The notes under the pieces were generated by a model. That model did not search any database, was not told the origin of the DNA, and saw only the letters and a program-made list of their open reading frames with translations. 64,000 bases of DNA, taken from Octopus sinensis (lineage: Eukaryota). Positions 8,156 through 49,500 of this stretch are shown in pieces (the stretch's first letter is position 1; each line of letters begins with the position of its first letter). The DNA lies in the NCBI RefSeq assembly GCF_006345805.1, contig NC_042998.1:172360001-172424000 (forward strand), written 5' to 3'. The translations under genes and the position numbers were made by a program.

Positions 8156-8314
8156 AGCCTTAACAGTCGAATAAACAGTGGTACTAGCAGCCGGTGCGTG
8201 TCAACATCCGACATCCCTCCGTCCATCACAGACCGCCACAGTCGCTCCGATCGACCAAGTTCTTATGCTGGTTTGAGTAAATCAACACCTTCATTAGACA
8301 TAGATTACAAAAAA
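8156..8314 (+). CDS. PPP1R12A: Internal exon of a MYPT1/PPP1R12-like myosin phosphatase targeting subunit (SLNSRINSGTSSRCVSTSDIPPSITDRHSRSDRPSSYAGLSKSTPSLDIDYKK)
   Basis: Pyrimidine tract + ttcag acceptor at 8151-8155 and gtaagt donor at 8315. 159 nt, phase 0-0, open. Ends in DYKK, which continues as LYE in the next exon (the DYKKLYE start of the MYPT C-terminal coiled coil). The symbol is family-level; the invertebrate gene is likely co-orthologous to PPP1R12A/B/C. Confidence 0.85.
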
Positions 8315-10068: not shown

Positions 10069-10075
10069 GCTGCCA

Positions 10076-11727: not shown

Positions 11728-11964
11728 GCTGCCAATAAGTAACACTAAATATAATACCGATGACTCATCTCTTCAAAATTTTACGTTGATCCTTATCAAA
11801 AAGGCTTCTGTATTTTAACATTGATTTTCTAGATTATCTCAAATTTTCAATAGAAAAGTATTTCAGTATGAACTCAAAATTTCAGAATAAAAATCTTCTG
11901 TTCCTCTCCTTTCTTTCTGTCTGTCTGTCAGTCATTTTCAGTATTTACATTATTTTATTGACAG

Positions 11965-12015
11965 GAAAAACGGGCTTTGGAGAGGAAATTGTCTGAACTT
12001 GAGTCTGCAATGGTC
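11965..12015 (+). CDS. PPP1R12A: MYPT-like penultimate coding exon (EKRALERKLSELESAMV)
   Basis: acag acceptor, gtaagt donor at 12016, 51 nt, phase 0-0. Resembles the MYPT ERRALERRISEMEEELK segment. Confidence 0.9.
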
Positions 12016-23134: not shown

Positions 23135-23221
23135 CAACATGAAAAGTTAAAAGCGGAGAACGCAAAAGTTAAGGAAGAAAATCGAGCTCTGGCTCGGGTC
23201 ATCTCCAAACTCTCCAGATAG
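23135..23221 (+). CDS. PPP1R12A: MYPT leucine-zipper exon A, proximal and divergent (QHEKLKAENAKVKEENRALARVISKLSR*)
   Basis: Long pyrimidine tract + ccag acceptor, phase 0, 28 codons + TAG, RVISKLS terminal motif. The donor-like gtaaat directly follows the stop. Confidence 0.85.
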   Translation, partial: QHEKLKAENAKVKEENRALARVISKLSR

Positions 23222-23569
23222 GTAAATTCAGTGTATCTCGAGATAACATCAAACAACCTTTCCAATTGATTGTGAAACCCAGCATGATAACCAGTTATTA
23301 TTAAATGGATCTCTCAAGTTTCAGTCTCTAGTACAACTGACAACCAGCATGGTACTTTGACTCACGCTTAGTGTTCCTTGTTTGGTTTACCTCTCTGGAC
23401 CTTAACGATATTCTTTTAGAATGTTCCAGCAATACTTAACAGCTTCCGTGATTCACAAATTGCTCTGTGTCTCTTTTCTATTTACAACACTCAGGTGCAT
23501 TGGCACCAACACAAAATCACCATCACTGCCATTGTCATCACCATCCTCATCATCATATTGATTTCCAGA

Positions 23570-24045
23570 TATATTTATAACATACTGCAGCATAATCCAC
23601 TAGACATGCTATGAAGTCTTCCCTTACTATTGGGAATAAAGGGAATAGAGTTCAACAAGAGTTATAATTATTTTCTAATGAAGCAATTTTGATATTACAT
23701 ATTCTTGATCATAATTATAAAGTCAGAGGATTCACTTTGAATTACTGTTTGCATATATCAAAATATATTTCCCATGCTGTATACATATGAACAGAAATCA
23801 TGTCCACTCTCGACCCTTTTCACATAGAGCCTGTGTACATTTGGCATTGTCATCATCTTTCAGGTAGTGTGATTAAGTTGGTCAATCCTTGCTCGTGTCC
23901 ATTTTAGAATGGATGCACTAGGGCAGACTATAGCAACAGCCCATATGTTGATGGCAATCACAAGATTTCTTTCATTGAGTTTTGACTTTATGACTTCAAA
24001 AGAAGTTTGAGGTGCTTCAAATATGCAAGTGACCTTGTCTTTCAT
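23570..24045 (-). mobile_element. Short degraded fragment of a REL-type LINE
   Basis: LNERNLVIAINIWAVAIV...LKW..IDQL, typical of the post-RT region of these elements. Confidence 0.5.
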
Positions 24046-25047
24046 TTATCTTTATTATTGTTTTTTTTTATCATTATTATTATTGAGCGTCATGCTAGCA
24101 GGATCAATAGAACAAATTTGTTGCTATATTTGTCCTTGCTCTTTAACGTTTTGTTCCTTTGGGGTCAATAAAGTACCAAGGAAGTCCTGAGATTGATTTT
24201 AATCAACTAGCCCTTCTCTCAAGATATCAAGTGTTGTGCCTTTTACCATTATTATAAAGGGTGATAAATTGGCAGAATTATTACAACATCAGACAAAATC
24301 TGCTTTCTTGCAGTTTTTCATTCTTGACAAGACTAGAGTCTTCTTTTTCCTGTGTTGTCTCTCTTTCTTGTCTAGTGAGTTTTAAAGTTGTGCTTAAATT
24401 TGGTATTAGGGTGGTAGATTGTTTTGGATAAAATATCCTGTGGATCTCTTTACATTCTTAGTTCAAATCCCATCGAAGTCAACTTTTTCTTTCATCCCTC
24501 CAGTCAAATATCAAAGGTGATTTAATTGCTTAACCCCTCACTACAAAATTCCCAGCCTTGTGCCCAAAGTAGAAACAGTTGTTGTAATTAAATATGCACC
24601 TTTTCTGTGTGCCATGCAAACTTCCAACATTTCCCCATTATTTCTACAGGCATCTCTTTTAGTCATATTTCATGTGGTGTCACAAAAACAATTTCATTTA
24701 ATAATTTTTATTGTAGCTGTTAGAAATGTCAAATAAATAATGTTCTGGTTTCCATCTAATGGATTGTAAGCTTATATTTTGCTTTTTTTTTTTTTGTATT
24801 CACTTCATTCTATAAAAGAAAGCTACAATGTAAGAGTTGTGCAGTCATCCTTATTGTCATTTGTTCTTAACCATGGCATTTTTGTCATCATTTTACGTTG
24901 GCTTTTCCCTTCTGGTATTCAGTTACTGCCCACCTGAACTGATCAGTAAGTGTGTTGCTTCTCTATTCCATTTTGTTATGGTCTGTGGTTGGATGCTCAT
25001 CCTATCACCAATTACTTCACAAGGTGCACTGGGTGCATTTAATCATG

Positions 25048-26055
25048 TATGAGGGGGTGTTCATTTAAAATTTCTCCTACATAGCCACTACCAAAAGTGA
25101 CACACTTCTCCCATTGCTTTATGCAACTGTGAAAACCTCATCTATAGACATTGGTAGGTTGTTTCTAGAACCAAGACTTTACCTCAGAAAGAAGTTCATC
25201 ATCATCCAAAAAGTGCCTCCCCTTCAAAAAAAGACTTCATGGTTGGAAAGAGGTGGATGTCAGATGATGTGAGGTTGGGAGAGTAATGGGAATGAGGAAG
25301 GATTTCATAGCTGCAGGAGTGTGCTTTCATCTGGGCAACATGTGCATTGTGGACTGAAGTGTTGTCTTGGAGGAGGTGGACTCCTTTGGTCAGTATGCCA
25401 CACCTCTCTGCTTTGATAGCCTCCTGCAATTTCTGCAGCAGAGAGGCATAATAATTGTGGTGCCCTTTGCCAGAAAATCCATCATCACTACTCTACGCTG
25501 GTCCCAAAAGACTGAGCATCACCTTGCCTGTTGAGGTCTGGACATGAGCCTTCTTTGGAGGTGGTGAGTTATCATCCTTCCATTGCTTTGACTAGACTTT
25601 AGTGTCAGGATCATAGTGATGGAGCCATATTTCATCCTGTGTAAGTCTGCTGAAAAAGTCCTTTTCTTGGCACATTGCCAAAAGAGCCTGGGAGCAATTG
25701 ACTTGTTCCTGCTTCTGAAAAGGTGTGAGTATCTGGGGAATCCATCATGCAGACAACTTGTGTGTGTGCAAATGGTCGTGAATGATTTTTTCCATGGACC
25801 CTTCACTTATCTTCACTTTTTGGGCTAGTTGCTGAATAGTTATGCGGTGACCCTCTGAAATGGTGGTTTCCACTTTATGGATGGTGTCGTCATCCAAGAA
25901 TAGGAGCAGTTTCCACCGATGTCCAACCACATTTGAACTGGCAATGCCAGTGCTTGATTACATCATGTGATGGTACATCATCACCATAAACTTCTCTCAT
26001 CTCATCGACAGTTTCTTTTGGTATACGATGAAATCTTAAATGAACATCCTATGTA
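25048..26055 (-). mobile_element. Degraded mariner element with terminal inverted repeats
   Basis: TIR-like ends (gtgttcatttaa / ttaaatgaacat). Translations include LLQDNTSVH, YSPNLTSSDIHLFP and DEIWLHHYDP. Confidence 0.85.
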
Positions 26056-29000
26056 GCTGGTACTAGAGAGATTGTTTTGTTTCTGACAAGACTAGAGAGT
26101 CTTTTTCTGCCTTAGGTTGTTTCATCCCTGACAAAACTAGTGAGTCTGCTGGGATAGGAAGGAGAGACAGCAGAGGGTAAGGGTGATGGAAAGCAAGCAG
26201 GTGAGAACAAGGAGAGTCAGAGCAGAAGTGTAATAAGTGAGAGAGAGAGAGGTGTGTAAATAGTAACATGTTGGCTGATGATGAGGGAATTAGATAGAAA
26301 CATCCCAGAAGCAGCTACATTAGGGTTGTTGGTAAAAATATTGAATAGAAATAGCATGACTAAAAGGATGGAAAGAAGAGAAATGGGGAATAACAAACAC
26401 AAGAGAATGATGGAAAAAAATAAGAATGCAAGTCACAAAAGGGTGTAGAACATGAGAATGGATGAGGAAGTGTATGTGTATGTTAGATAGTTACATGATG
26501 GTGATAATATGAATGTCAATGAATGATAGATGAGGGGGAGTAATGGGAGAGAAAAGTGGAGGAAGTGGTTTAAATTCTTGCTAAATCTAACATAGCATCA
26601 GATTAGATCCTTGCCATTTAGTGACATATATTTCTATAGCAAGGCTCCTTGATACATTCTCTAACTCTGTTCTTACAATTCAAAAGAGTGGCTTATGTTT
26701 ATAAATGGTGTCATAGCATATGCAACCAGAGCGCATCATCTTCACCATAAAATGCTGTCAACTGGAAGAGTTTGAGATCTTGCAATCTCGTTCGTTTTTT
26801 TCTTTTTTCTGGAAAATGAACTCCGTGGGCAGATTATTAAAGTCAGGGGCATGGATTCATATCTTACAGTCTGTTACTTTTTTTAACTAAAGGAAAGATT
26901 TTTAAAAAACCCAGAAAAACAAGATTTTCCTGTGTATAATTTAGAATTCATTAAACTACTGCCACTTAAGATATTCTAATTGGCTACCTGTACTGGGTTG
27001 CAACATTATTTATGTAAGCCACTCAATTTTTTTCTCCATTTTAATATAATTTGAGGCATATCCTTAATTTTATTAATAAAAAATGGAAATAAAATAAAAT
27101 ATATAAATTGTATTTGCAATGAGGTCACAGTCTTTATGTGTATGTGGTCATAAGTTCAAATTTACTGTCCTTTTCCAAAGAATAGTAGATGCCTCTTAAT
27201 TCTAATGCAACTGACTGCCCTCACTTTAAATTGAAGTTTACAATAGTGTATCACAAAAAAATCATATGTAAGTTACAAATAGTGAATGTGTATCTGTGCT
27301 GTATTTTTAATAGTTTGAGCTGGCTGCTCTCCCAGTTGTTCATACAGTTAACAGATAAAAGTTTGTTACACATTCTTCTAGCTTTTGTTTAAAATATGTA
27401 TATATATATATTTTTTCAATACTATTTTGAATGTATGCCCAACAGAAATTCTATATCCAAACTAGCATATGTGTTAGAACTTAGTTTTTAACAACTGTAT
27501 TAACTATTACATTATATTGCAGCTCTGCGTGGTAGCCTTTACAGTAAAGTTTGTAAGTTTTGGTTGAGTTTTTGCCATCCCCCCCCCACACCAAATGAGT
27601 AGGAGAGGGTAATGATGCCTTTGACATTTTGTCTCAGACAAAATGTCAGAATCCTCTTTTCCCACAACATCGAAACTTATCCAGATTCAGGAACTTCACT
27701 CTGTAATTTTGTTGGTTTAGAGCACACCACTTACTTTGGAATTGTTATATATATATATATGTGTGTGTATTTGTGTGTGTGTGTGTGGAGAGAGAGAAAA
27801 AAGGCCTTTTAAGCTATATGTTCCATTTAGAAAATTTTAATTATGTAACCAACTCCAAGTCGTATCACACCCGGATTGAACTGTTTCATATTGATTGTGA
27901 TGTTACATTCACTTTCAGAGTCTATTTTCAAGCTATTTATTCATTCCATTCTGTAATTATCACTATAGTCGCCAATGATCAGTCACTCTGTACACCATGC
28001 ATATGTCCATCTCATATTTGTTCCGTTAACATTTGAGGAGTTATCTTCTTTGCCCATTTTCAGAGAGCTGTTCATTAACACTAATGACATTTCTTCTTCT
28101 TGCAGTTATAGTTGCAGATGATTGAAAATTGTTTTAGACTTGACCACCTCAGCTATATGTTCTTAATGCAGAAAAGCAACAAGGCAACCTTAGGAAATTT
28201 TGATATCTCTCTTTCTCTCTCATGTGTGTGTGGTGTGTGTGTATATATATATATGGTAGGCTGCAGAATTATTAATATTTGACAAAATACCTAGTAGTAT
28301 TTATTTATTTACCTTCCAAATTTCACCTGGTAAAATCTACTGTTCATCTTTCTAGGTTTGATGAAGTACTTTCTCTCTTTCTCAACCCACTCATTCCTCA
28401 CACACACACACTCAGATAGGCTTTTAAAGGCAATGACTCAGCATGGTGACACTTCTATAGTCAATGCATTTTCAGTCTTAGCAAATTTTGGCAAGTTATA
28501 TTGTGGAGGTGTGGTTCTGTTAATTGAATTCCTGAAAACTAGTGATTGGAGAAAAAAAAAATATTGGTTGGGGACGGGGGTCAGAGAAGCAGTTACTTAA
28601 TCACTCTACACCTGTAAAAATTCTGCTTATTTTTATTCAGATATGGTCAGGTATTAGAGTAGTGGATAAACTACAAGCTAATGCTCTTTTTAACTTGCAT
28701 CATCTTGTCAAAAATGGTTTTTGTGTTAGGTCTGGAGTTACATGGCCTTCACAGGCTCTCCAAGACCAACAAAATTGATACTGCTGAAGTATCACGTAAA
28801 CTATTACAAGTTGATATCTATAAAAAAAATGTGCTAAGAGAATTGCAGTTGGTCCACCTTCTTGGTTAGTGTAGGGTCTCTGGTGATGATTAATGGCTGG
28901 GGAGACTATGGATAATAGGAGAAGGAGAGACAAAGGAATTAGGAGTGTGTAAGTGAAAATGGCATAAAAACAGAGGCTGTAATAGTAGTTGTAGTTGAAA

Positions 29001-32000
29001 AGGTAAAGAGAAAAGAGCATGTCTGTGGGGGAAACTTTGTGCCACTTAGTGGATTGATCCTTCTCTGGATGTGGTCTAGATTGTTTGTGTGTATGTATTA
29101 GCAGCACTATCTTAGATGTAGGAGTACTAGTCTATTGAGAGCTTTCCTGAGCTTAGTTGAAAATCAGAGATCGAATTAGTTGGAGGCTGAAGTATTCTAT
29201 GGTTCTGAAAGGAAGGGCTATTCTTTGAGATGCAGTTCTAACCATGTGATGGATGTGCATCCACCATGAGATATCTTCAGTGAATGTGAGGTCTAACATT
29301 TGAAACAATCCTGAAGGCTATAGTTGCATGATTTTCATGTTTGAGGCAAGTTAGGTGTAATGATATTTTTTCTTCTTTTTTATATTAGCTATGCTTACGT
29401 GTATATTGTGATTGACTTTTATTAGTCTTGTTTAAAATGTAAAATGCATAAAGTGCACTCATATTTATCCATATGGAAGCAAATCATTCAGGAAACTTTA
29501 GGTTGGCTCACATTAAAATGCTTTAATTTAGCTGTGAAATCTAGAAATTGACACTGGGATATGTTTTAGGTAAAAGCTTGACTCTGAAGTAGTAAAACCT
29601 TGCTCTATTTTATCTTCGAACACTGTACCAGATTTAGTTTCCTAATTCATTAGCTATATTTATGGCAATATATCTGTTTATCCAAGAAGCCAATACCAGA
29701 ATATTCCTGCTGTCAGGAATCTATTTTAACTCTAATTATATAATGCTTGTCAAAGTAGGAATGGCTAATGAATTCAGGAAAGAATAGACAACTCCATTTA
29801 GTTTCTCCCCACTTTCTTTCATACACACTCACATACTGGCACTGGTTATGATGACGAGGTTATGACATCGATCTGATCGATTAAACAGCCTGCTTGTGAA
29901 ATTAACATGCAAGTGGCTGAGCACTCCGCAGATACACATACACATTCTCTGGGACATTTGGCAGGACACAGTCTGATGAGACTGACTCTCTGAAATACAG
30001 GTACTACTCATTTTTGCCAGTTGAATAGACAGGAACATTGGGAAATAAACTGTTCTTGCTCAAGGACACAACATGCCACCAGAAATCAAACTCACAACCT
30101 TAAGAATGTGTACCAAATACCTTAACCACTAAGCAATGCACCTTCACTCAGCTGGCAAAAATGAGTTGTAACTGTATTTCAAAGGGGCAGCTTTGTCACA
30201 TTCTGTGTCCTGCCGAATCTCCCTGAGAAGTATTTTAAGGGTACACGTATCTGGAGTGTTCACCCACTTACATGATGCGTGTGTGCGCACACACATACAC
30301 ACACAGTTTGATGCTGGTTAGTTTTACAAGAGGAGAATACATTTTTGCCAGGATCTTCCTTTGATAGTTTAAATTAGTTCCATCTGGGCATCAAAACTAG
30401 GTCACTGATTCAGTTCATTTAGAACTCACCACTGTTACATTCTCTATTAAGATAAAGAAGACTGTGCTTGTTATTTTTAGGCTTGCTTTGTTTTTTTTTC
30501 TTTATTTTCTGCTGTTAGCTGTTGTTTCATTTCTAAAATGATCCATGCTGTTATTATTTAATCTATCAGCTTCTTGTGATTATGTTCATCCAGCTATCGT
30601 ACATCATGCTATGTTCTTGGCCTGTTGGTAACTTATTAACCATTGTCGGATTAGTATTTTGTCTTTAAATGTGTATTATATTTAATGTTTCATTTCTTTA
30701 CTCAAAATATTTTGTGGAAACTTTCATTTTGACTTAGAATTTTATTTTGCATATTTTAATCACTTCCTTTGTCTAATTTGGATGTATAAATTATTTAGTG
30801 CATTCATTTAATCTAAAATGAAGTGAAACATTAATTGAACATGTTTCAAGTTATTTAAACTCTACAGCTTTTAGTGCATAGTTACTTATTTATTATTATC
30901 GTCATTATTATGCTGGGAAGATGGCAGAATCATTTGAACATATTTTCATTATGTTCTGAGTTCAAATTTCACTGATTTCGTCTTTGCCTTCCCTCCTTTC
31001 GGAGTTGATAAAATAGGTACTCACTGAGAACTTTCCTCCCCTGCCAAGATATCAAACAATTATTATTATTAGTATTATTTTTACTGTTCATCAATATTAT
31101 TTAGGTAGTAAGCTGGTAGAATAGCATCCTCCTCTCCCCAGTTGTTGGTCTTGTGCTAGAGTTAGAATGCTTTTTATTATTATTATTATGGCAAGTTGGC
31201 ATAATCATTAGTACACAGGGCAAAATGCTTGGTGGCATTTTCAATTTCATGTTCTGAGTTCTAATGATGTCAAGTTTGACTTTGCCTTTCATCCTTTCAG
31301 GGTTGATGCAATTGACTTAAGCCCTCTCACTGAAATTGCTGGCCTTGTGCCAAAATTTGAAACCATTATTATTTAATATTCATCATTATTATTGATGAAA
31401 GGCTGTGAGCTTGCAGGATTGTTAGTGCATGGGGCAAAATATGTTTAGCAACAAATTAAGATGTCCAAATCATATAAGAGAAGTGATTAAAATATTCCTA
31501 GGTGAAGAGCTGGCAGAATTGTTGGCACATGGGACAAAATGCTTAATGGCAGTTCTTCTGGCTGTGTGTTCTGACTTCAAATTCCAAGGTTGATTTTTGC
31601 CTCTCATCTGTTCAAGATGAATAAAATAAATACCAGCTGAGTACTGGGATCACCTCCCCCAAAATTTTAGGCTTTATGTCTATTGTAGAAAGGATCATTT
31701 TTATTACAAGATGATCACATTTTGCAATACTGGTGGAGATAAATTAACTCCAAGCTATATTATTTCCAATAGGGAAAATCTTATATTGACAAAACTAACA
31801 TTGAAGCAACAGTAGTAGTTGTAGTCTTTATAGTAAATACTTAACAGCAGTTCTCTTAGTATTTTAAACTAACAACTAAAATATTTTCTTTTTAACTTCA
31901 AGGTAAGCAATGTTAAAATTTCATGTGTATGCCAAAAATATTTAAAAGAATGTTGGTAGTATTTAATTTCATATCTGTTCTGAAATGGTAATTGTTTAAT

Positions 32001-33433
32001 TTGTTGGAATATTAGAAAAATTTCTATAGAATTTTTTTTTTTTTTTGAAAAGTTAGACATTTTTTTATGTACTATTTTACCTCAAATTTAATTTTCTTTA
32101 TAAGATATAGTACAGTTGTATTGCACATGAAATCGTATGGGTTAGCTATTTCCAATTTCCATTTGAAAATGTCTTAATTCCTAATTTTAATTTACCAACT
32201 CCTAACACAAAATGACTTGTGCAAAGCAAATCTCTTTCCTTGTTGAGAAAACATCATGCACTGTCAAGGCAAGGAAACGGTAACGCATGTGCACATATAT
32301 ATACACATATGTAAACAATGGGCTTCTTTCAGTTTCCATCTACCAAAGCCACTCATAAGGCTTTAGTTGACAAACAGCTATAGTAGAAGGCACTTATTGA
32401 AGGTGTATTGTGAGATTGAACCCAGAACCATGTTACTGGGAAGCAAATTTCTTGCCTTACAACCATACCTGCACCTATGTATAAAAACAGTGTATGTATA
32501 ATTTGTTGGACCAAATTATTCATTAAATTCTGATCCAGTCCTTGTTTATTGTTCAATTTCAACTTCTTCTATCTGCTTGGTGAGTCAGATAGAAGATAAT
32601 GCCACCAAAACATTTTAGTAGTTAAAGGTTTGGTATTTATCTATCCAGCAATTGCAACCTGTTGTTAGGCTAAATCAGGTAAAAGATGTATTTGAATCTA
32701 GACAAACAGTAGTTTAGAACTGATAATATCCTTTTATGGAGTGCATTTTTTTTTAATACATGGCTATATATGTTAAGTTCTCTTCAAGCAAACATTTTTT
32801 TCTGTATTATCTCACATTCCTAAAGTTTAGTCACTTAATAATGAAGCACTTGAGTTTTTCTTAAAATTGTTTGAAGTTAATGCAGTATCTCCAAAGGTCT
32901 ACAGATAGTGCCGTGTTAGTATTTTATCATATCTATTTAGATGAAAGTTATTTTCTTCAACTCAGTAGTTCCATAGCTTGCTTAAGCAGAAGCTTTTTTT
33001 TTTATTTCCAGATTTTTCCCCCGGAAAAGGGTGTGTCTATAACAGTTATTCCATACACTAAAGCTAAAAAGACCACTTGCATTTCAAAATTTGAATTCTT
33101 TGATATTTATAGTTAGAAACAGCTAACTAATGCTTGATGTATTGTTCTATGTGTCATATAATACTTGATAAATGGATTATATACATAATTTTCATTGTCA
33201 TGTGTCTGCTTTCCATGTTGGCATGGGTTGGATATGGATTGTCACAGTTGAAGTCTTTAATACAGACAGATTAGATCTTGCTTATTTGTTTCAGTTTGGC
33301 TTGGTTTCCATGGTGGGGGTACCCTTCCTAACATCAACCATTTTACAGAGTATTAGGTGTATTTTATGGCACCAACAAATTAATGGTCGTCATGTCTTCA
33401 ATTATAATGAACTAGAGTGTATTTTGAACCTAT

Positions 33434-33618
33434 TGCAAAACAAGTAGAGAAATACACTCAATAGAAATGGCTAATGAAGCTGACCAAATGTCAAAAACGA
33501 TACCCAAAATGCATGGATGAAAGCAAAAACAGAAAGACTTAAAATCTGGAAAATTAAAAAAAAAAGTTTCTGCTTCGTTAGCCATTTCTATTGAGTGTAT
33601 TTCTCTACTTGTTTTGCA
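33434..33618. repeat. 47-bp inverted repeat with 91-nt spacer
   Basis: 33434-33480 is the reverse complement of 33572-33618 apart from one U-G pair. Confidence 0.9.
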
Positions 33619-36525
33619 GCCACTTAAGAGTGTATTTGGTGCATTTTATTGTGGTACCAGCACCTGTGTAGTTTACTTTAGCCCCAATGAAACAAAAGGG
33701 TCATCACTGCTGAAAGTTATCACTATCAGCATAGAAGTAAATGAGTATTTGAAATTAATCTATGGATTAGAAAATGTACAAGAAGATTTTATTGAAAAAT
33801 GCTTCAAACTGTGGAGCATTAAGACATTAATTAATGACCAATGCTATTACATACCTTTATGAACCATGTTAAGATGTTTTGTTACTGTAAGTAATTCTCT
33901 GTAGCTTACTTTGTTTAACAAGTTATATAATTGAATCATTCTTGTTGCCTCCCGTCACAGTTTAAGTTCAAATCCCACCCTAGTTGAATATGTTTTCATA
34001 TTCCTGAAGTCAATGATATAAGTAAAGTGGCAAGCTGGCATAATTGCTTGCATGCTGAGCCATATGCTTAGTGGCATTTCATCCTTCTTCACATTCTGAG
34101 TTAAAATTCTGCTGAGGTTGGCTTTACCTCTCATCCTTTTGTACCAGTTAAGCACTGCACTCATTGTAATCGATTTACCCGCTCCCTCGAACTTATTGGT
34201 CTTGTCCCAAAATATTGAAACCAATAATATAATTATTTATCATGAGCTGGGGTAAATACAATTAACTATCTCTTGAATGCAGTTGTTCTAGGATGGTCCA
34301 CAATGCAATTGCTGAAAACCATGAAGGAGTGGAAGAAAAGATTCTTCACTTAAAGTAAAAGAATAACTAATTTTATTAACAATTTTGCTGGCAAACAATA
34401 ATTATCATTATTTCTATTTTGTTTCTCCTTTTGTTGAATAAATTATTACGGCTTTATTTTTTGTTTTTATATCCTTCATTTCTATTCTTAGCTTCTCTCT
34501 CATTTTTGTTAATTAATAATAGCGAACAACAACACTTGAAGCCATTTATTAGTAATTTTATATCATACAGTCTGTTTCAACAATAACCTATTCTTATTCT
34601 CTTCACTTAACTCTATCATTAATATGAAATATATTCAACACGGTTACAGTTTATTTAAACTGGGTCATATGTAAGCACCATATTTTCTTTTTCTATTTTT
34701 GATTTTAATTACTATACCCTTGCATTCTTTATCTCAGCTACCACTCTCTCTTCTGTCTATATCTTATCCCCCCCCCCCCCCATCAATATTCTCTCTTTCT
34801 CTTTCATGAATGTTTTGTTCTTACTTGAACTCTTTATGTTCTCATAGCTGAAACAGAAATTCATCTTGACTAACTAACTAACTAACTAGATGTTGTTTCT
34901 GTCGCTATTTTCTTCAGTCTGTAACAATCAGAATGTTTCCCATTAGTTGTGATATTAGCTTTTAACTCCTAACAATACATCTCTTTCATCCAGTGTCATC
35001 TGTAGTGGGGTTCAGTCACCAAAGCAACAACATACTATCTAATGCTAGTATTTCTATTATTCTATTAGCCTAACAAACTTCTCAACTTCACTATAACCTA
35101 ATGACAGTATCTCTTCAACCTATCATCCACATCAGAAACTTGTAGACATTCCTTAATACAACTGCCGAACCCATCATTAAATGCCATTTATTGTTGATTA
35201 AAAAGAAAAACAAAAGAAAAAATATAAAATGAAATTTTAGAACACTTCCATTTAAATTTTTTAATTATTTCTACAATATTATTTTTAGTCTCTTAATTAA
35301 ATCCTCAAGCATATGTTATTTTCCCTAAAACTGTATATCTTTAATGCACTTTCAGAGCATGGTTCACTAATTTCATAGCCAGTCAATTAGGTGATTCCTG
35401 TCTTAACAGTAGTACTGCATTGTGTCCTTAGCTATGGTTAGTAATTCTCAAATGGATCAGTCTACCTAACAAACAAACAGGCACTACATTTTTGAATGTT
35501 TTGTTAGTTTTCAGTACTGAGTTCAACTTCTCATGTGGACATTATTTAGAGAAGAATGGATTCTGCCCAGCCAACTTGTGCTATATATTCTTTATGAAGC
35601 TGGACTTCAGCGCTACCCTTTTCACATGGGGACTAATGTTACAAACTTATGTTGTACTTTGCTACTTACTATTGTTGGTTGACTTTAAGCAGTGCAGTTA
35701 CGCATAGCTGGAGTACATGCTTTACGGCATTTAGTATGGTAAAGCAAAGCATCGTTAGATCCTGCCTAGCATTTCTTCCTTCTGAAGTGAATTACATAAC
35801 AGTAAAGTTAGTCCTTAATTAAAGTTACCTTGTGTCACTAAGTATGAATGAACTGACTTCTGTTTTTGACTTAACCCATTTATTAGTTGTATAATCTATA
35901 ACAACGTAACATAACATTACAATGGCCCTTAGTATTTCCAGAAACTTTGGTAGTTTTCATAATGCTATTAAATTTAATGGAAATTTATCATGTAGAATTC
36001 TCCGAAGCATTTCAAGAAATCAAGTTAGGCTTAGTGAGAAATGTACAACCCTCAGTTTCATTTAGTGTTGGCATTGTTTTATAGTTTAAGAGGTTTAACA
36101 TGTAGTTATATGCTGTTAGATGTTATGTTGTTATCACTGGTTCTCCCTTCTGAACTTCTAGCTTTTTGTGGCTAATGTAAATTAAAAAAAAAAAAAAAAC
36201 TACTGAGGATGTGTATTATACAATGTGTCTTCATGCATTAATCCTTGTTGTAATAATTTCTGGCTGTTAAGATTGAATATATTTGAAGCATCTTCTGCTT
36301 TGTATTCAGAAACAACGTATTCCAACATTTATTGAATTTTTCCAGTTGTTCATCACCCGAAATTTTTGTTGCTTACTTTTTATTATTATTTATTTATGCT
36401 TTCATATATTTTGTACCATAGGAAGATTTCAAAATTGAGGACAATTTAAATTGTTGGGTTTTATCATTCTTACTTTTAATCATGGAGTTTTGCTTTACTT
36501 ATTGTATGTATTTTCATTTTTGCAG

Positions 36526-36612
36526 GAAATGGACAACTTGCGATCTATAAATGCACGACTGAAAGAAGAGAATGGAGCTTTAATAAGAGTGGTCAGCAAA
36601 CTCTCCAAGTAG
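36526..36612 (+). CDS. PPP1R12A: MYPT leucine-zipper exon B, distal and canonical (EMDNLRSINARLKEENGALIRVVSKLSK*)
   Basis: ttttcatttttgcag acceptor, phase 0, 28 codons + TAG. Matches the conserved MYPT C-terminus RLKDENGALIRVISKLSK. Confidence 0.92.
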   Translation, partial: EMDNLRSINARLKEENGALIRVVSKLSK

Positions 36613-38716
36613 TCAGAACTGCTTTATTATTACATTTTATACACATACACACACATATTACTTATGCCTCTTCTCGTTCTTGTTCTCCTCCCACTTCTCT
36701 GTTTACTTACTACAATTTCTCCCATTACTTTAATTCATCTTTTTTTCCTTTTCATTACTCCATCATCATCATCTTCATCATCATCATGCTCATTATCATC
36801 ACCATGTACATCATAGCCAGGTTCCCCCAACTCCACACAGTTACGTCAAAATTTAAACTTTCTGCTTACACTGGAAGTTCAGTTGAAATCTGATTCTGTT
36901 CTTGTCTTCCAAACTACAGTTCTTGCATATAACCGCCATGCCAACCTTGTTGCAGCTGCTTGGCTCTTGTTGAGTACCTATTTGCATGCCAGCATACACA
37001 ACTATGTAGATATAAGTAATGGTTAAAGATCAACTTAAACTATAGTTTTGAAGGTGATGTTTGTCTAGCTTATATTGAGGAATGAGTTCTTTTCATATCT
37101 CCTGAAAGCTGCCTCCAAAATTGTAAACCATTTTATATAACCTTTTACTGTTTCTTTAAGTATTATTGCACATTTGACACCTGTTTTTTTTTTTTTTTTT
37201 GCTTCAATATACCTTTCTCTCTCTGTCCCTCTCCTCTATCCTTTTTCTCTTTTATTCTTTCGTTTTCCTCATATTCTGCGAATTTTAGTGTCGAGTAAAT
37301 GTGGTGTGTTGTTTCACACAGGCAGAAATAATAATTGATGAAGGAGCTATGAACTGTCCATTTACTCTATTCCACTCTATATTCTTTCTGCTGTCCATTT
37401 GTTTTTTCCTATTAATAACTGTCTTATTTTTGATTTTTTAAAATTTGTTTTAATACTTTTATCATCTTCTCTATTTTATTCATCACTATAACACTTGTTG
37501 GTTATTATTACTGTTATTATTCCACTCCATTCCTCATATTGATTCTTCTGTTGTGAAAGGTGGGACCTACTACCTATGCAATATGAAGAGTTAGAAGTAT
37601 AAAGTCTTAGGCCATCTTCTATAATGTCCATTGTGATGTAAATAGAGCTTGCTATCATTCTTGGACATGCTATCAATTTTTGTTTCTGAAACCTCTTCAT
37701 TTGATTCTTAATTATGTTCATATAATTGTAAACTACCTGCAGTGAATTATTTTATCAAACCCAACATCCCAAAATAAAAGGCATAGATTTTCATGTCTGA
37801 TCCTTTTATTGTTGTTAATTTTTCTTCTTAGATATTGAGTGAAAATGATGGAAAGCATGTAGCTTGCCAACTTTTTGGAACTAATACAGGGAAAACTTTT
37901 TTTTCGTTTTCTTTTTTAAATTTCTTATCAGCTAGAATGTTTTATTTTGAAATAATTTGAAGGAAAGGCAATTCCAACTTTTTAAAGATCAATTTGATAC
38001 GATGTGAAATAATAAGAGAAAAAATTTATATTTGTCTTTTAGTTCAAGCCTACTTTTTTCATTTCAGAATGTACTTCACTTCTGTCTGTATTTATGTGTG
38101 TGTAAAATGTATATAATCTGCACATACACATATACAGCTTGGTATTAGGCTTAAATTTACTCCTAGAATATTTAGATGGTAGAGGGGAAAAATCTATATT
38201 AATTCTTTATATAGTTTTTGACTAATTTTAGACTTTTAATCTTGTTTAAAGAATACCAAATGTTTTTCTTTTATGACCTCACATTTTAATTTTCTGTAAA
38301 TTCATTTTCTTTGTATTTAGTAGGAATCATTGTGTGAATGTTACTGAAGCAAAAGAAAGACGTTTGTACATTACTGCATATACTCTGACAAGTTGTGGTG
38401 CACCTGAGCACTGTATACAATAATTTCATTATTATAAGGAAGTAGTTGACAATCATATTTCATGACCAGGTTTAGAATATACTGAATTTCTCTCTTAAAT
38501 TGTGGTACTTATAGGTTGTGTTTTTATAATAAGAAATTAAGGCTATTTCTTTCTTTTTTTTTTTTTTTTGTTATCTTTCTCCTACTCAGCAATATTTTTT
38601 CCTGTTTTAAAAAAATCATTTTAGTATTTTTAATACACACACACACAGCAAGTATGTATTCTTTATACAAATATTTAAAAAATGCTTAATTCACACTTGT
38701 GCAGATGAGCAGTCAG

Positions 38717-38766
<50 letters not shown>

Positions 38767-39289
38767 TTAGTGTGTGTAGGGAACCAGAAAACCAACACAG
38801 TACTCTACATTCTGGTGTTGTGGCCTTATTCCTCACCTCTTCATTAATCTACTGAAGAATGTAGACATTATGCCAAAAAGTTTAGACAGTATGGAAACTT
38901 AGCAGAATTGATATCTTCCTTTGGCTTCATGCACTTGCAGGAACAAGCATGTCTCTCATGCATATATATATATATATATACATCAAATTTTCTTTCATTT
39001 TCTCAAAAGAAAATTTGTTTAGAATTTCTGTTTTCTATTTAGTACTTATTTTATTTGATGCTGGTGAGATATCAAATGCCTACCAAACGACAGCCAATCT
39101 CCTAGAGTACGCATTGTAGAGTAATGTAATTGTTCAAGTAGCTCCAGTCTTGTTGGTTTTCATTCTTGGTTTTAATAAGAAAAAAAAAAGTTTTGAGAAT
39201 ATAGATTACAAAGACAAGAACTTATGTTGAGTGTGACCTGTATTATTTAGTACTATTTTCTGGATATCATATATGCTAGGTTTTTCTGG

Positions 39290-40620
39290 TATTTTTACAA
39301 GGATATCATTGGAGCACTAAGGGTCATAAAGAAACTAGTCAGTCACAACTGGTATTGTTTCTGTCTTCAGCTATTACATCCTGCTTGTTTCAATTTCAAG
39401 GTCTTTATACCAGGCAAGTTTATCATATTCCTTGGTAAGTACATTTTTTAACAAATGGTATTGTCATATATATATATAGTAGGCAGGTCTTGCTCCGGAC
39501 GTCTTTAACAATAATGTCTGGGTGGTTGGCATTAATTTTGCAATCACTATATACTGCTAAGTCCCTAGCGATGGTAATATCATTACTTTCTACTACTGGT
39601 TTAGTGTTCAGACCAGCTTTACGCATATTCAGTTCCAGTGAATGTATTGGGCCATCTGTGTCATGTCTGGTTTTATATTTGATTGGAGCCAGCATTAGGC
39701 ATCCAGCTACACTATAGTCAATTGTTTTGTCATGGGCATTACTGACTCTGCACATGAGGGTCTGCTCCATTTTTGATGTTGGTTTGATAATTCATAGTTT
39801 ATAGGGAGAAAGAATGAATCCCTCTGGCTTCAACCCTGAACTCTGCAGCCACTGATAGGTTTTTGATTGGTTTACATTAGCTTCCTAGGTATGGAGTGGG
39901 TATAAGCCATAGAGAGGCTTCAGCTGCCATCTATTTTCAAAATTTTAAGTCTTTCTGTTTTTGCTTTCATCCTATGCATTTTGACTATCTTTTTTGGCAT
40001 TTGGTCAGCTTCGTTAGCCATTTCTATTTTTGCAGTGTGTATCTCTACTCTATTTCTGAGCTTCTTTGTTCACTGAATGAAGCATCTTCTGGGTTTCATG
40101 TACTCTCACTCATATCATCATCCAGTCATTGGTCTTGCTTAAGTACTTCTGCAGCCCAGCCTTAGCTCTCTTCTACCTTCTTTCCTTGACAGGTAGAGGC
40201 GGTCTATATCTATCTTTGGATGGTACATTTTATTGGTAGTTATATGTTTTTTGGTTTTTGTCTTCATTCTTAGGTTTCAGTTGATGACATTGAAACCATA
40301 TTATACAAAAGGTACTGCTAAACTTTTAATACCTTCTATGCAATTCTTGGAGCTCACTTTCCAGGACCTACCTTACTCTTCTGTAGCACTCCTTTTAACA
40401 TTGGCAGTTTCGGCTGGGAAAGTTCTTCAAATTCCTTTCAAGGTAACACTGGATGATTTTGTTTCTTTGATTGTGCAAAGAGTTGTCATTCCTGTACTCT
40501 CTATTCTATGGATGGTGAATTGCAGCTCTAACACCAGAGCACCTCCTGACAGTTCTGCCATTTTCAGCCAATAAATTGTGGGTAATATGTCTCAAGCATC
40601 TCCCATGTTTTAATGAGTGA
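39290..40620 (-). mobile_element. Degraded REL-endonuclease (R4/NeSL-like) LINE 3' fragment
   Basis: CR..TID...GC..LAP..Y..RHD and PDIIVKD...CLL...TIP motifs. Boundaries are approximate. Confidence 0.7.
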
Positions 40621-43600
40621 AAATGAATGAGATTGCCAGATTCATCATTCTTATACAAGTTCTTTTGTTTTTAAAAGAAAACCATCTGATACCATACAAT
40701 GTTTTTGAATGGAGATAGTTGGAAGACATGTTGTATCGATGCCATGTGGTGGATTAATATCAGGTTATTGGTGTAGGTATGATCTTACCAGATGAATCCA
40801 AATTTTGCAGCACTGCTACAGATAGTTGGTTTTCTTTCACTTCTTCAGTAGTACTCCTTTATCCTTGGAAACTGGTCAAGGCCTTCACAGTCATTCCATA
40901 ACACAAGGACATTCTTTAGATTGGTATCTGTTTTGAGTTCTAACAACCACTCACTGATAATTAAATTGACAGGCTGAGTCCTGAGTGAAAGAAGCAATAT
41001 TATTATTATTATGATACTTTGGGTCAAAATATTAGTGTCGCACAAAGTCTTAAGGTATTTAGTTTTGATCTTCATATTCTCAGTTCCAAACCTATCAAGG
41101 TTAACTTTGCTTTTCATTCTTCTAGGGGTTTGATTAAATGATTACCAGTAATATCTCAATCAACTTATATATTACGTAATCAATATAACTATTTTTTTTT
41201 TATTGTAGGATGCTCTTACACTTTTTGTTTTCCTTTTCTATCTCTTTCTCCCTCCCTTCCTTTACCTCTCTCTTTCCGTTTCTTATTGTGTATGTATAGC
41301 TGCAGTCCAAGTTAGCAGGTTGGCTAAAGGTTAAACCGCAGTGTGTGCATGCAAATGTGTAAAAAAATTGCATCTTAAATTTTGTTAAAAGTATCCTTCT
41401 CTCAGGTTACTCAATTCTCGATTGTCACATCTAGATTGTATCATCTCGCATGTTGGTTCTTTTTTTTTTTTTTTTAAATTCTTTTGCCATTTTTTAAAGT
41501 CTCTTATTTTTTTTGTTTTGTTTTTCAAACTCTGACACCTAGTGTACATAATGAAACTTCGAGGTGGGCCAATCACAATGGTGCTATCCTGACTTACCAG
41601 TTTTTCCATAATCTTCCGGTTGTTGTTGCTTAGACAATTCTTATATATGAAAGAGTATATGGGCCTCTGTTGATTTTGACGAAAGTATTGTGGGTGTTTG
41701 ATTAACTGAGCCACCTCCTCATTGAATTAGGGTGTGAATGCTTGGGTTTGCCACAGACGCACCTTTTGAGGTAATGATCCTCAGGCAGAATCAGTGTGAG
41801 ACAAGGCTGGCCTTTTTTTTTGATTATAAGTACAGTCCATACAACAAGCTTCCACACTTTCCAACTCAATTCCACTTAGTTTGAGTCAACTTGAATCAAG
41901 TAAACGACTCTTGCCCAAAATGCCACAAAATGGGATTGAGACACATATTGTATACATTGTGTGTATGAATATGAATTGGTGTGTAAGTAGATTCTAAAGC
42001 TTGTTTGGTTTCTGTATGTGTGTGTGAGAGAAAGATTAATCCATACAAAATCGAAATGTATGTGCATAGTAACTTGAATATATAAAAAATAAGCAAAATA
42101 AAGTAATCTTTATGCTGTAATATTTTTTACTGTTAAACTGTTTGCTGCACAGATCAAAGTGTAAATAACCAAAATTGGAATAGATTCTATTTTTGTAGAT
42201 AGTATGAAAATGACTGGCAATCCCTGGTCTGTCACCTGCAAAATAGGGAAATTAACAAACCTTATTTTTGCCACATACTCCACACACATGCATACACACA
42301 CACTTTGGTACACAGTTATTCAGAGTAATTGACAGTGTATATATACATTCGTGTGTGTTTATGTGTGCATATGTCCATGCACACACACACACACATTTAT
42401 TTTAATCTCATTTGGAGACTTGCCTTGTTAATTATGTTTCTCATCATTGAGCTTCAAATCTTTTTGACTTGCCTTAAATTTAAAATAGATTCACGTGTTT
42501 ACAAAATAATATGCCACAAACAACCCTGTGTTGAATTATACTATAAACAAAGTACTAGTTGTATTAGTTTGTGGTTATTCTACAAAGGAACGATGTGGTT
42601 GAATGTGTGTGTTTGTGTGTGTGTGAGCCTGTAAGTAGTAGTCTCTCATTTGAGTATTTTTGCTTATAATTTGAAATTTGATTGATTTTAAAAAGCAATG
42701 TTTTTCTTGTGGGATTCTCCTCCTCCTTCAAAGTGCAACTTCAAATTAATTATAGCAAAAAAATTTTATGTATTAACGATTGTCTCTTCTACAAAATCTT
42801 TCAGCTAGAATACTTTGTTCAATATAGCTGGAAAAGTACAGGAACTTCATTGAAGTTGTGTTGTTTTCTAAAGAATTATTATTCTTACTATAGAATATGC
42901 AATAAATTGTATTTATACTAAATATATATATAATATGTTTGTGTGTGCGTGTGTGAGATTAAGCACATGGTTGTTATATTCTTGCTGGCCATTCCGTGAT
43001 ATTCTATGTAGGGAACTCAAGTAATGTAGTAATTCTTGGGAATATTTAGATGTTTAGATGTGTGATGACTTCGTTCTGCAAGATAACTGAGCAGTAATGT
43101 TAATTTTTCAACATTGCTGAAACACCTATTTAAATTATATATATATATATGTATATATATGTATATATATATATAGGCACCTCTGTAAATATTGGATTGC
43201 TGTGTAAATATTGTACATTTTTCTATGGGGTCTAATTTATTATGTTGCTGTGTTCCTCACCCCTTATGCTTATCAAATGTGTTTGTCTACTCATCAACTT
43301 CTTGATCTCATTTGTTTGTTTTCCTTTTCAATTGAAAAAAAGAAAAAAAATCAGTTATATTCAAATGGTTTCTGATTGTTTCTCGTAATACATCTGAATT
43401 AAAATGCATTTTCTGACGACAATATGTAGCTGTAATAATTACCATCAACAGAATACTCAGAACTTTAAAAACCAAATAAAAAAGTAATTTAAAGTTGTCA
43501 TGTTTTTCTGTTTTTGATAATCGGTATCTTTCAGGAAACCTGCTGATGTACTATTGTAGTTGAGAGATCGTTAGTACCAAGGCATATTGCATTCATCATG

Positions 43601-46535: not shown

Positions 46536-49500
46536 GTATTTTATATGTTGGGATTCATGTGTTAAGTCATTTAATTTTTTGACCCCCAAGGAATGTGAAG
46601 CATGTATTGTGATTGAAAGGGATCCTCTCAACTAGAAAGGTACAAGGAATTGGGTGAAATGGCTCAGCCGGAAATTGAAACTTCATTGCAAACACAGCTA
46701 AGAGTTTATCATCACCCTACAATGAAGGTGCCCCTAGCCAGTCTCTTACCTATTATTTCAACATAAAACAAAATCCTGTGGGGTTTACCAATCTGGCTTG
46801 TGATTTTTTTTCCTTTTAAATTGTATGTTCTTATATCAAAAGGGCATATGGACGAGTGGTTAGGGTGTTGTAATGCAGACAATCACCATACTATCATTAA
46901 TACAAAGAGTTTGTATAGGTTATGATGAAACACTGTGTATTTTGAGTTGACTAAACCACAATAGTTGAAATGTGTAGTTTGTAGTATTGAATGGTTGTAA
47001 AGAAGACGCAGATATTTCCAAATATTACAAAACAAAAATATAAATTTTGGTAAAAGAAATTAAGACTTACGTGTTAAGTTGAATAACTTAACCCTGGTAA
47101 GCAAATTGAAAATCAAGTGTTCTTTTTTTTTTAAGAGTGTGTTATGTGGGAGATTTCATCTGCTACTTTTACTTGGTCAAGTGTCTGTAGAAGCTATTTT
47201 GGTGGCACATGAATAGTTAAGAGAGTGCTGTTCATTTAAAATAGGGAGCTTAAGTTATATTATCACCAGTTTTAAGCCTATTTCAACATAATTTGGGTGT
47301 TAACTAGACATCCAAACTAGATTCAGTAGATTCTTTGACTTTGTGAGGCCTTAGTAATGCTCTGGAAGTTGGACTTAATGGAATGAAAAACATGGGTGGT
47401 AGTTATTGAATTCATGATGTTAACTGATTTATTTCATCATCGTCATTGTTTAATGTCTGTTTTCCATGCTAGCATGGGTTGGACGATTCAACCGGGGTAT
47501 GGGAAGCTAGGCGGCTGCACCAGGCTCCAGTCTGATCTGGCTGTGTTTCTACAGCTGGATGCCCTTCCTAACGCCAACCACTCCGTGAGTGTAGTGGGTG
47601 CTTTTTACATGCCACAGGTGCCAGGGGAGGCTGAAAACCGATCGGTTGGTGCTTTTTATGTGCCACCGGCACAAGTGCCAGTAAGGCTGCACTGACATCA
47701 GCCACGTTCGGATGGTGCTTTTTACGTGCCACTGGCACAGGTATCACTACTACAATTTCCATTTGATTTTTTATTTTGATGTTGATGTGCTTGACTCTAT
47801 AGGTCCCCTCAAGCACACAGCATAAATCAGATGAAGGGCAACTTCATGACTTCCTGCCTATGAAACTGGTGGAGGAAAAAGAGAATGAAACAATAGCTCA
47901 TGGCAGACATATTCCAAATGCTATAACAAAGAACCGAGACTGCCCTGGTTCTAAGATACAAACTTCCTTTTGTTAAATTCTGTTCCAAATATCAGCCTGA
48001 TTACAACAGTTATTTTACTCGATTCTTCATTTTCAAAATTAACTGAAACAAAGACAGTGTCTTCCAACAGAAATATGGTAACAAAGGAGCTAAAAGCACT
48101 GAAAAGTATACAATGGTATTAACCTTTTTATTAACCACATTTCTGTTGAAATACACTACCTTCGTTTCATTTATGTTTAAATAAATGAAAAGCTTAACAA
48201 AATAATTCATTAGGCTTATCTCTGGAACATAACCTGAAATATTACTGGAAGATTTTGATTTAGATCTCATTAAAACAAGTTTATACCATGGAACCAGTCC
48301 AATCTCAGGGAGATTGGTATCAGAAAAGTTAATGTAGATAATTAATCTGATGATTCAACTGACTGGAACAGACCTGTTAACTGTTACAAGTACTAAATGG
48401 AATTTACTGACTTAAAAGGCTTGTGTACTAGCAAGTAAACTTGCTATCTTTTACCTTTTTTTTTTTTTAGAAATATTCTGTTCAAAGAAGTGTTTCATTT
48501 CCTTCTTTCTAAACATCAAAATACAGGATTTGGTGAATGCTGATCTTCGAAATATCTGTGAAAGTTTTGACAATGACTTTTGGTGACTACCTTAATTGCT
48601 TCTGAAGTGCTTGGTATAAAGGGGTCTCTTAAATTTAACTTGGTCTACAACAGGTTATTTCCACATGCATTTCAAGTCAGCATCATTTTCCATGACTGAC
48701 TCATTAATTTGTTCCATATCAAAGCTGTTGATGCTTTTTATTATTTTTCAACTATTTGATCTAATGAAAAATATTGTATGAAATCTAGTAGAGTAGGGGA
48801 GAATTTAGGACATGGTATTATGTTTTAGTTTTCAGTTTGTCCTCTTAGTGGAACAAAAGCTTGATAGTAAGGTGTGTTTCCAATATTTACGAACAGGATT
48901 TTCTTGAGTATTTTTGACTTCATATCCGCTGTCCGATCCACCTCAACTGATTTAAGGTGTTTTGAATCACACGTTCTCAGCTACAAGGATGATGTTCCTA
49001 AACTTCGCTCACAGTAAAAGGCTACAAATGGTGTATTAGCAAAGCGTATGGAAGTATAAAATTAGCAAAGTGAAACTTAAAGGAACAATTCGAAAAGTTG
49101 CAGCTTCTAATCAAATATGTAAACCATGTATCAAAGACTTGTTTGTTTTTAAATACAACTGTTCCCAATCCATATATGATTATTAATCCTGATTTTCAGA
49201 AGACCATTCAAACAAAAAGGACAATGTATTAGATATTATATGCCAACTTGTGCTAACTTTTCAAATAAACAGTCTATTAGTTTTGGTAACTGTATCGTAC
49301 CGAGTTTGACTTCATGACAGATGACTGTGGTAACATCAATTTGATCAGTGTTTTGTGGAGTAAACTGCAGAAGTCCACACACATGAACATGTATGCACAC
49401 GTAAGTATATATTAATGTTCAGGGATGTCTACTTTATCATCATTTAACATCTGTCTTCCATGCTGGCTTGAGTAGGACAGCCTGACAGGATCTGACAAGT

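What the first reader, a model, noticed from the sequence alone, without database searches (positions are those of the whole stretch)
23135..36612. Duplicated leucine-zipper last exon: a two-zipper isoform switch in myosin phosphatase
Seen: two intact 87-nt phase-0 exons 13 kb apart, QHEKLKAENAKVKEENRALARVISKLSR* and EMDNLRSINARLKEENGALIRVVSKLSK* (15/28 identical, no indels). Both can join the donor at 12016. B keeps all four heptad leucines (5, 12, 19, 26). A has L12V plus G17R and I20A in the otherwise conserved ENGALIRV. Established: in vertebrate MYPT1 this zipper mediates PKG-Ialpha (NO/cGMP) regulation and is switched off by a 31-nt frameshifting cassette exon just upstream of the zipper exon. 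Inference: this lineage may have independently evolved a switch at that junction by exon duplication, tuning partner binding rather than deleting the zipper.
Basis: partly seen in the sequence, partly recalled or inferred. Interest (0 to 1): 0.75.

Follow-up and report, generated by a model that had tools for sequence, protein, structure and literature searches.

The report
Ancient two-zipper switch in myosin phosphatase
This octopus myosin-phosphatase gene can end in either of two related leucine-zipper exons, and database proteins show the same pair in molluscs, a priapulid worm and arthropods, so it is likely an ancient invertebrate switch that is predicted to change which proteins dock on the zipper.

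Summary
Two intact 87-nt phase-0 exons (A 23135-23221, B 36526-36612; 15/28 aa identical) each complete the PRKG1_interact domain of an octopus MYPT1/PPP1R12A gene. RNA-type contigs break exactly at both acceptors (A in 1 of 4 runs, B in 3 of 4, among rows shown), and RefSeq models both ends in two octopus species. The interpretation needs three corrections. (1) The pair is not octopus-specific: A-type ends occur in bivalves, gastropods, a chiton, brachiopod, annelid, rotifer, priapulid, spider, crustacean and insects, with both forms in at least 15 species, so it likely dates to the protostome ancestor. (2) The conserved difference is R/K17 + T/S/A20 (47 of 47 A) versus G/A/S17 + I/V20 (107 of 107 B); V12 and A20 are octopod-only. 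(3) Vertebrate E24 lies one intron further upstream. A has its own read-through 3' UTR and also a donor-like site directly after its stop, so a cassette mode is possible. The zipper core is kept and a surface patch swapped, so partner switching is the likely function (untested). Both isoforms are database-annotated; ten literature searches found no study of the pair.

The parts
8156..8314 (+). upstream coding exon of MYPT1 (159 nt, phase 0), ends at the start of the PRKG1_interact domain
   Evidence: CAG/GTAAGT ends; translation matches P0001/P0002
8972..9118 (+). coiled-coil exon (147 nt, phase 0)
   Evidence: TAG/GTAAGT ends; PF15898 positions 5-42
11965..12015 (+). 51-nt penultimate coding exon, counterpart of human E25; shared donor at 12016
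   Evidence: human E25 is 51 nt with the matching peptide (PMC9367544 supplement)
23135..23221 (+). proximal zipper exon A (28 aa + TAG), R17/A20 type
   Evidence: PF15898; contig X11 record 1 joins the window exactly at 23135 with 30 foreign letters before it; RefSeq isoform X2 of O. sinensis and O. bimaculoides
23222..23227 (+). donor-like GTAAAT directly after A's stop (possible A-to-B cassette splice); use not shown
   Evidence: only 8 sites of this grade in 24,000 nt of flanking intron; the one A contig reads through it
23222..23640 (+). 3' UTR of A (contig cover to 23566); candidate poly(A) signal AATAAA at 23635
   Evidence: the cleavage site is inferred
36526..36612 (+). distal zipper exon B (28 aa + TAG), G17/I20 type, counterpart of human E26
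   Evidence: contigs of X7, X2 and X14 break at 36526 with 1098, 357 and 518 letters from elsewhere
36613..42500 (+). long 3' UTR of B (contig cover over most of about 5.9 kb, up to the edge of the stretch laid)
   Evidence: contig pieces 36526-38392, 38779-42278 and 42407-42500; no single piece spans it all

Best explanation
The octopus MYPT1 gene has two paralogous zipper exons that are spliced as mutually exclusive coding ends, a pair that likely arose once in or before the protostome ancestor and is predicted to swap a partner-binding patch on an otherwise intact dimeric zipper. Shown: both exons are intact and RNA-type contigs enter each at its acceptor; A reads on into its own 3' UTR; both forms exist in species across both protostome halves. 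Inferred: the choice is mainly an alternative-last-exon choice (proximal A with a short UTR, distal B with a long UTR), possibly with a second, cassette route (A spliced on to B, stop retained). In heptad terms both keep the core (Asn at a9 and a16, Leu at d19 and d26, mostly Leu at d5 and d12). B shows a small residue at b17 next to a hydrophobic e20, as vertebrate MYPT1 does; A puts Arg and Thr/Ser/Ala there and is about 2 charges more basic. B would thus keep the vertebrate-like docking surface (PKG-type or other coiled-coil partners) and A would exclude or replace those partners without losing dimerisation.
For: Exons and domain. Splicing: (A: 1 of 4 runs among rows shown; B: 3 of 4); RefSeq X1 = B and X2 = A in O. 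sinensis and O. bimaculoides. Both forms in one species: O. vulgaris, O. sinensis, O. bimaculoides, Mytilus galloprovincialis (same contig), M. edulis, Pecten, Crassostrea, Gigantopelta, Priapulus, Drosophila sechellia, Musca, Dalotia, Cinara, Panulirus, Argiope (15 species). A also in Argonauta, Ylistrum, Patella caerulea, Batillaria, Liolophura, Lingula, Seison, Folsomia. Order A-then-B recurs in chimeric gene models of an annelid, a moth and a cricket. Residues 17 and 20 covary without exception: 47 of 47 unique A (classed by residue 17, chimeric A halves dropped) have T/S/A20; 107 of 107 B have I/V20; net charge +4.0 vs +2.2. Tree: A|B split 100/97; without columns 17 and 20, 44 of 46 rows are still nearer their own class; octopus A is 22/28 identical to priapulid A but 15/28 to its own B. 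Vertebrate zipper-PKG link: passages of PMC13755552, PMC5087845, PMC3329079.
Against: No binding, tissue or functional data for either zipper in any invertebrate was found. The tree has only 28 columns: without columns 17 and 20 the label needs 3 changes (shuffled mean 15.2), and an AU test does not reject an octopod A+B clade (p = 0.095). Octopus A is no closer to fly A than to fly B (15 vs 16, 15 vs 17 identities). The 30 letters before the A contig were not printed, so the 12015 donor is inferred. The runs are 'RNA?' by guess, contigs only, tissue unknown. In fly CNS, Mbs last-exon usage shifted in elav/fne mutants but was scored 'No'.
Confidence: 0.6

Rival explanations
1. Splicing route differs: A is mainly a stop-bearing cassette exon (12015>A>B), so both mRNAs share B's long 3' UTR and only the protein end changes; a stop at the last exon junction would be expected to escape nonsense-mediated decay.
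For: AG|GTAAAT lies exactly after A's stop; 8 such sites in 24 kb of intron. A fly Mbs event of 907 nt is catalogued as a cassette between the 87-nt exon and the last acceptor (PMC8797185 supplement; that it is A is my inference).
Against: The only A contig seen reads through the donor to 23566; no 23221>36526 joint among 15 joint rows shown (399 hidden). Fly Mbs is treated as an alternative-last-exon gene with 3'-seq counts.
Confidence: 0.3
2. The point of A is a phosphorylation switch: R17-x-x-T/S20 is a basophilic kinase motif (own knowledge) at a dimer-flanking e position, letting a kinase control dimerisation or docking.
For: R/K17 with T or S at 20 in 44 of 47 unique A-types; T is replaced by S in 3.
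Against: All three octopod A sequences have Ala20, so it cannot apply in this window; no phosphosite data were seen.
Confidence: 0.12
3. Independent duplications in several lineages (including octopods) with convergent R17/T20.
For: AU test does not reject an octopod A+B clade (p = 0.095); the A|B split weakens without the two diagnostic columns.
Against: It needs the same paired substitutions, the same K4/E8 bias and the same A-before-B order repeatedly; octopus A matches priapulid A at 22/28.
Confidence: 0.08
4. The function is in the 3' UTRs (mRNA stability or localisation); the zipper differences are incidental.
For: A has a short UTR and B one of several kb; neurons favour distal last exons in fly (PMC9470587 and PMC8055025 passages).
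Against: Fixed amino-acid differences at 17 and 20 in all 154 unique sequences imply selection on the protein.
Confidence: 0.1
5. A is a dead duplicate or an annotation artefact.
For: A was seen in 1 of 4 runs at depth 5.
Against: 26-28 of 28 residues kept among four octopods, homologs in more than 20 protostome species, and a contig entering at the exact acceptor.
Confidence: 0.02

Closest known systems
Vertebrate MYPT1 (PPP1R12A) LZ+/LZ- switch by cassette exon E24
   Same: Same gene family and domain, same 51-nt penultimate and 87-nt zipper exon layout; alternative processing decides the C-terminal zipper; B matches the vertebrate zipper type.
   Different: E24 is a 31-nt frameshifting exon one intron further upstream and deletes the zipper; here a paralogous zipper replaces it. 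My rough scan found no microexon candidate in the equivalent octopus intron 9119-11964 (0 hits).
Drosophila Mbs (DMYPT) 3' isoforms
   Same: The same A and B ends are in RefSeq models of D. sechellia and Musca; Mbs is listed as an alternative-last-exon gene (PMC8055025 S2 table); FBgn0005536, which I recall as Mbs, is in a list of fly genes with homologous mutually exclusive exons (PMC7954323 file 5; exon pair not named).
   Different: Arthropod A usually has a C-terminal extension and T20; octopod A ends flush like B and has V12 and A20. No paper found on the function of the two fly ends.
Tandem-duplicated mutually exclusive terminal exons (fly PGRP-LC, pip)
   Same: Homologous 3' exons chosen one at a time after a shared donor (PMC9013439 passages).
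   Different: Those examples are insect genes with several copies and RNA-pairing control; this is a two-copy pair spanning protostome phyla; RNA pairing was not tested.
Par-4 (PAWR) leucine zipper, PDB 5fiy
   Same: Only solved-structure hit for B (E = 0.077); similar Asn/Leu zipper pattern.
   Different: Weak match, different gene; gives no structure for the MYPT zipper itself.

Membership tests
MYPT1/PPP1R12A-C family | N-terminal ankyrin repeats plus C-terminal PRKG1_interact domain | tested here: met
   P0002, whose C-terminal exons match the window, has Ank and PF15898 hits; the N-terminal exons lie outside the window
MYPT1/PPP1R12A-C family | 51-nt penultimate exon and 87-nt zipper exon, phase 0 | tested here: met
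Vertebrate E24-type LZ+/LZ- switch | frameshifting microexon upstream of E25 that removes the zipper | tested here: not met
Vertebrate E24-type LZ+/LZ- switch | isoforms differ in PKG-Ialpha binding and cGMP sensitivity | not testable with these tools
   no binding prediction or assay could be run
Tandem-duplicated mutually exclusive terminal exons | homologous exons, same length and phase, shared upstream donor | tested here: met
   RefSeq models join both to the same upstream exon
Tandem-duplicated mutually exclusive terminal exons | each exon is spliced into mRNA | tested here: met
   contigs break at both acceptors; upstream letters not printed
Alternative last exons | proximal exon has its own poly(A) site and is not spliced onward | tested here: inconclusive
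   read-through to 23566 and AATAAA at 23635, but a donor-like site follows the stop and 399 joint rows were hidden
Regulated isoform switch | tissue- or stage-specific use | not testable with these tools
   runs carry no tissue label; the A contig was listed for 1 of 4 runs in a cut table

The most novel reading that the evidence does not exclude
Protostomes have carried, since before the Spiralia-Ecdysozoa split, their own on/off switch for cGMP/PKG (or other zipper-partner) control of myosin phosphatase: a duplicated zipper exon whose R17/T20 surface blocks the partner that the G17/I20 zipper binds, used tissue-specifically in muscle versus neurons and non-muscle cells. It would be a functional counterpart of vertebrate E24 built by a different route, sitting unexamined in Drosophila Mbs.
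Probability: 0.3. Interest if true: 0.7.

Novelty: new variant of a known kind. Interest (0 to 1): 0.45.

Why it matters
Myosin phosphatase sets contractile tone and cell shape in all animals, and the vertebrate zipper switch is a much-studied determinant of nitric-oxide sensitivity. A second, older way of switching the same zipper, kept with two fixed surface substitutions across flies, crustaceans, worms and molluscs, gives a natural mutagenesis pointing at the docking residues (b17, e20). It also means that Drosophila Mbs transgenes and antibodies may address only one of two ends. It is directly testable in flies. It is not an octopus innovation, and both isoforms are already in public annotation.

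Tried and rejected
Octopus-specific origin: rejected. A as a degenerate zipper through L12V: octopod-only, 3 of 47. 'Same junction as E24': rejected. A-to-B joint: not among 15 rows shown, table swamped by repeats at 30.9-31.5 kb; no verdict. No listed run is on record as RNA; they are 'RNA?' guesses. Deuterostome A-type: none among the 6 named deuterostome rows in the tree, and 0 of 29 A-type representatives with a hit had a deuterostome best match versus 22 of 95 B-type (7 A and 1 B had no hit); this is not proof of absence, and nematodes, flatworms and cnidarians were not identified among the hits. Microexon scans found only weak candidates. No whole genome was held, so other octopus exons and dN/dS could not be examined. 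Solved-structure search gave only a weak Par-4 hit. Mbs was absent from the supplements searched of PMC9470587 (2 files not searched) and from the main texts of PMC8055025 and PMC9013439. Four look-ups of papers by recalled or cited id (a MYPT subunit phylogeny, tried twice; a fly mutually exclusive exome paper; a fly Mbs paper) found nothing held, so these were not seen and may already mention the pair.
Full report
OBSERVATION. Each follows a pyrimidine-rich tract and CAG, is 87 nt with its TAG, and they share 15/28 residues and 52/87 bases without gaps. No other 28-residue frame in the 64 kb matches B at more than 9/28. Both hit PF15898 (PRKG1_interact) at profile positions 75-101, above the curated cut-off. 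Upstream lie three phase-0 exons, 8156-8314, 8972-9118 and 11965-12015, each ending in GTAAGT. The peptides are identical to proteins annotated as PPP1R12A of Octopus vulgaris and O. sinensis. One feature was missed: A's stop is followed directly by GTAAAT, a donor-like site of a grade found 8 times in 24,000 nt of flanking intron.

EXPRESSION. I laid 22600-42500 on contigs of 4 of the 23 listed runs, from four studies; all are 'RNA?' by guess and carry no tissue label. In X11 a 465-nt contig (depth 5) lies on 23135-23566 with its first 30 letters off the window. That is what a splice branch into A's acceptor should look like; the 30 letters were not printed, so their origin at 12015 is inferred. 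The contig reads through the post-stop donor into a 3' UTR, with AATAAA at 23635. In X7, X2 and X14, contigs break exactly at 36526 and carry 1098, 357 and 518 further letters from elsewhere. B's UTR is covered over most of the way to the edge of the stretch at 42500. No A-to-B joint appears among the 15 joint rows shown, but 399 rows were hidden and those shown are repeats. RefSeq already models isoform X1 with B and X2 with A in O. sinensis and O. bimaculoides.

AGE. Searches with the octopus and then the mussel A end, cluster look-ups and a profile search of 1.84 billion representatives changed the reading. Both ends occur as isoforms of one gene in 15 named species: three octopuses, two Mytilus, Pecten, Crassostrea, Gigantopelta, Priapulus, Drosophila sechellia, Musca, Dalotia, Cinara, Panulirus and Argiope. 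A-type ends also occur in Argonauta, Ylistrum, Patella caerulea, Batillaria, the chiton Liolophura, the brachiopod Lingula, the rotifer Seison and Folsomia. Chimeric gene models of the annelid Lamellibrachia, the moth Operophtera and the cricket Gryllus run part of A and then B, the octopus order. In 8 of 43 A-type representatives the 28-mer is preceded by unrelated residues ending in Gln, as expected when a CAG acceptor at the same boundary is read in frame. A tree of 46 zippers splits A from B at 100/97, but the label was defined on column 17. With columns 17 and 20 dropped, the label needs 3 changes (shuffled mean 15.2), 44 of 46 rows remain closer to their own class, and an AU test does not reject an octopod A+B clade (p = 0.095). 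Octopus A is 22/28 identical to priapulid A and 15/28 to its own B, though no closer to fly A than to fly B. One duplication in or before the protostome ancestor (more than about 540 million years, own knowledge) is the simplest account; 28 columns cannot prove it. No A-type turned up in deuterostomes: 0 of 6 named rows, and 0 of 29 A-type representatives with a hit had a deuterostome best match, against 22 of 95 B-types. This is limited sampling, not absence.

WHAT DIFFERS. Among unique 28-mers, all 47 with R/K17 have T (41), S (3) or A (3) at 20, and all 107 with G/A/S17 have I (101) or V (6) (chimeric A halves dropped). A also prefers K4 and E8 and is more basic (+4.0 vs +2.2). The core is shared: N9 (46 of 47), N16, L19 and L26 (47 of 47), L12 (43 of 47). 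V12 and A20 belong to the three octopod sequences only. In the register that puts the leucines at d, residue 17 is b (surface) and 20 is e (flank). So A is not a broken zipper; it is the same zipper with a different face.

MECHANISM. Shown: two intact, spliced, mutually exclusive coding ends, conserved across protostomes with fixed surface differences. Established from papers (passages only): the vertebrate MYPT1 zipper binds the PKG-Ialpha zipper and its loss lowers cGMP sensitivity (PMC13755552, PMC5087845); one discussion notes that PKG can also bind the upstream coiled coil (PMC3329079). Inferred: B keeps the vertebrate-type small-b17/hydrophobic-e20 patch, and A's Arg and polar or small e20 would exclude or replace its partner while dimerisation stays. 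I put this whole account at 0.6. The splicing route is probably an alternative last exon, with a real chance (0.3) of an added cassette route through the post-stop donor. A phospho-switch on R-x-x-T/S fits 44 of 47 A-types but not octopods.

COMPARISON WITH KNOWN SYSTEMS. Human PPP1R12A has the same 51-nt E25 and 87-nt coding E26; the 31-nt E24 lies before E25 (PMC9367544 supplement). The vertebrate switch is therefore one intron upstream of this one and deletes the zipper; PMC5087845 words it as just before the last exon, but the sequence listing shows otherwise. In Drosophila the event is catalogued but not discussed in what I could read. Mbs is in an alternative-last-exon table, with a wild-type versus elav/fne log usage ratio of 0.74 (replicates 0.70, 0.82, 0.69), scored 'No', and no shift on ELAV overexpression in S2 cells (PMC8055025 S2 table; which last exons were compared is not stated in the rows). 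A 907-nt Mbs exon is listed as a cassette before the last acceptor (PMC8797185 supplement). FBgn0005536 (Mbs by my recall) is among fly genes with homologous mutually exclusive exons (PMC7954323 file 5). Ten library searches returned no paper, by listing or by the passages read, on two paralogous MYPT zippers or their spread. Subscription papers, including an MYPT phylogeny and early fly Mbs papers, were not seen and could mention it.

VERDICT. It is a new variant of two known things: tandem-duplicated terminal exons, and zipper switching in MYPT1. The octopus-innovation claim fails and the isoforms are in public annotation, but the protostome-wide pairing with two fixed surface residues seems unremarked and is cheap to test in flies. 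Interest 0.45.

Noticed in passing
window 10164-11744, minus strand: A 527-codon open frame in the GC-rich part of intron 9119-11964; by my reading it looks like a LINE-type reverse transcriptase (not scanned against Pfam).
   Followed up: no
window 36591 and 48527-48586: An O. vulgaris model (P0049) splices from inside exon B to an AG-preceded exon at 48527, truncating the zipper before L26; the peptide matches 19/19. No RNA was laid there; it may be a prediction artefact or a third, zipper-short end.
   Followed up: partly
protein P0008 (O. bimaculoides isoform X8); not found in this window: An isoform that drops the whole PRKG1_interact domain and ends in a hydrophobic tail; tblastn found no matching exon in the window. 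D. sechellia P0249 also ends before the domain. A zipper-less form may exist by another route.
   Followed up: partly
window 23117: A second CAG acceptor 18 nt upstream of exon A, in frame; the one A contig uses 23135.
   Followed up: partly
window 36526-36612: Octopod B is itself divergent (I8 where 105 of 107 B-types have D/E; V23), with a long branch like octopod A: both zippers sped up in octopods.
   Followed up: partly
window 36613-42500: B's 3' UTR appears to be about 6 kb or longer, with higher depth in its distal part.
   Followed up: partly
window about 29900-34500 and 37900-38500: High-copy transcribed repeats (contig depths in the thousands) in the A-B intron and in B's UTR.
   Followed up: no
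proteins P0246, P0248, P0255, P0256: Fly models skip the 87-nt exon before the zipper and join the previous exon to either A or B, giving four C-terminal combinations.
   Followed up: no
arthropod A-type proteins, e.g. P0242, P0268: Most arthropod A ends run 1 to more than 20 residues past the zipper, whereas mollusc and priapulid A ends stop flush like B.
   Followed up: no
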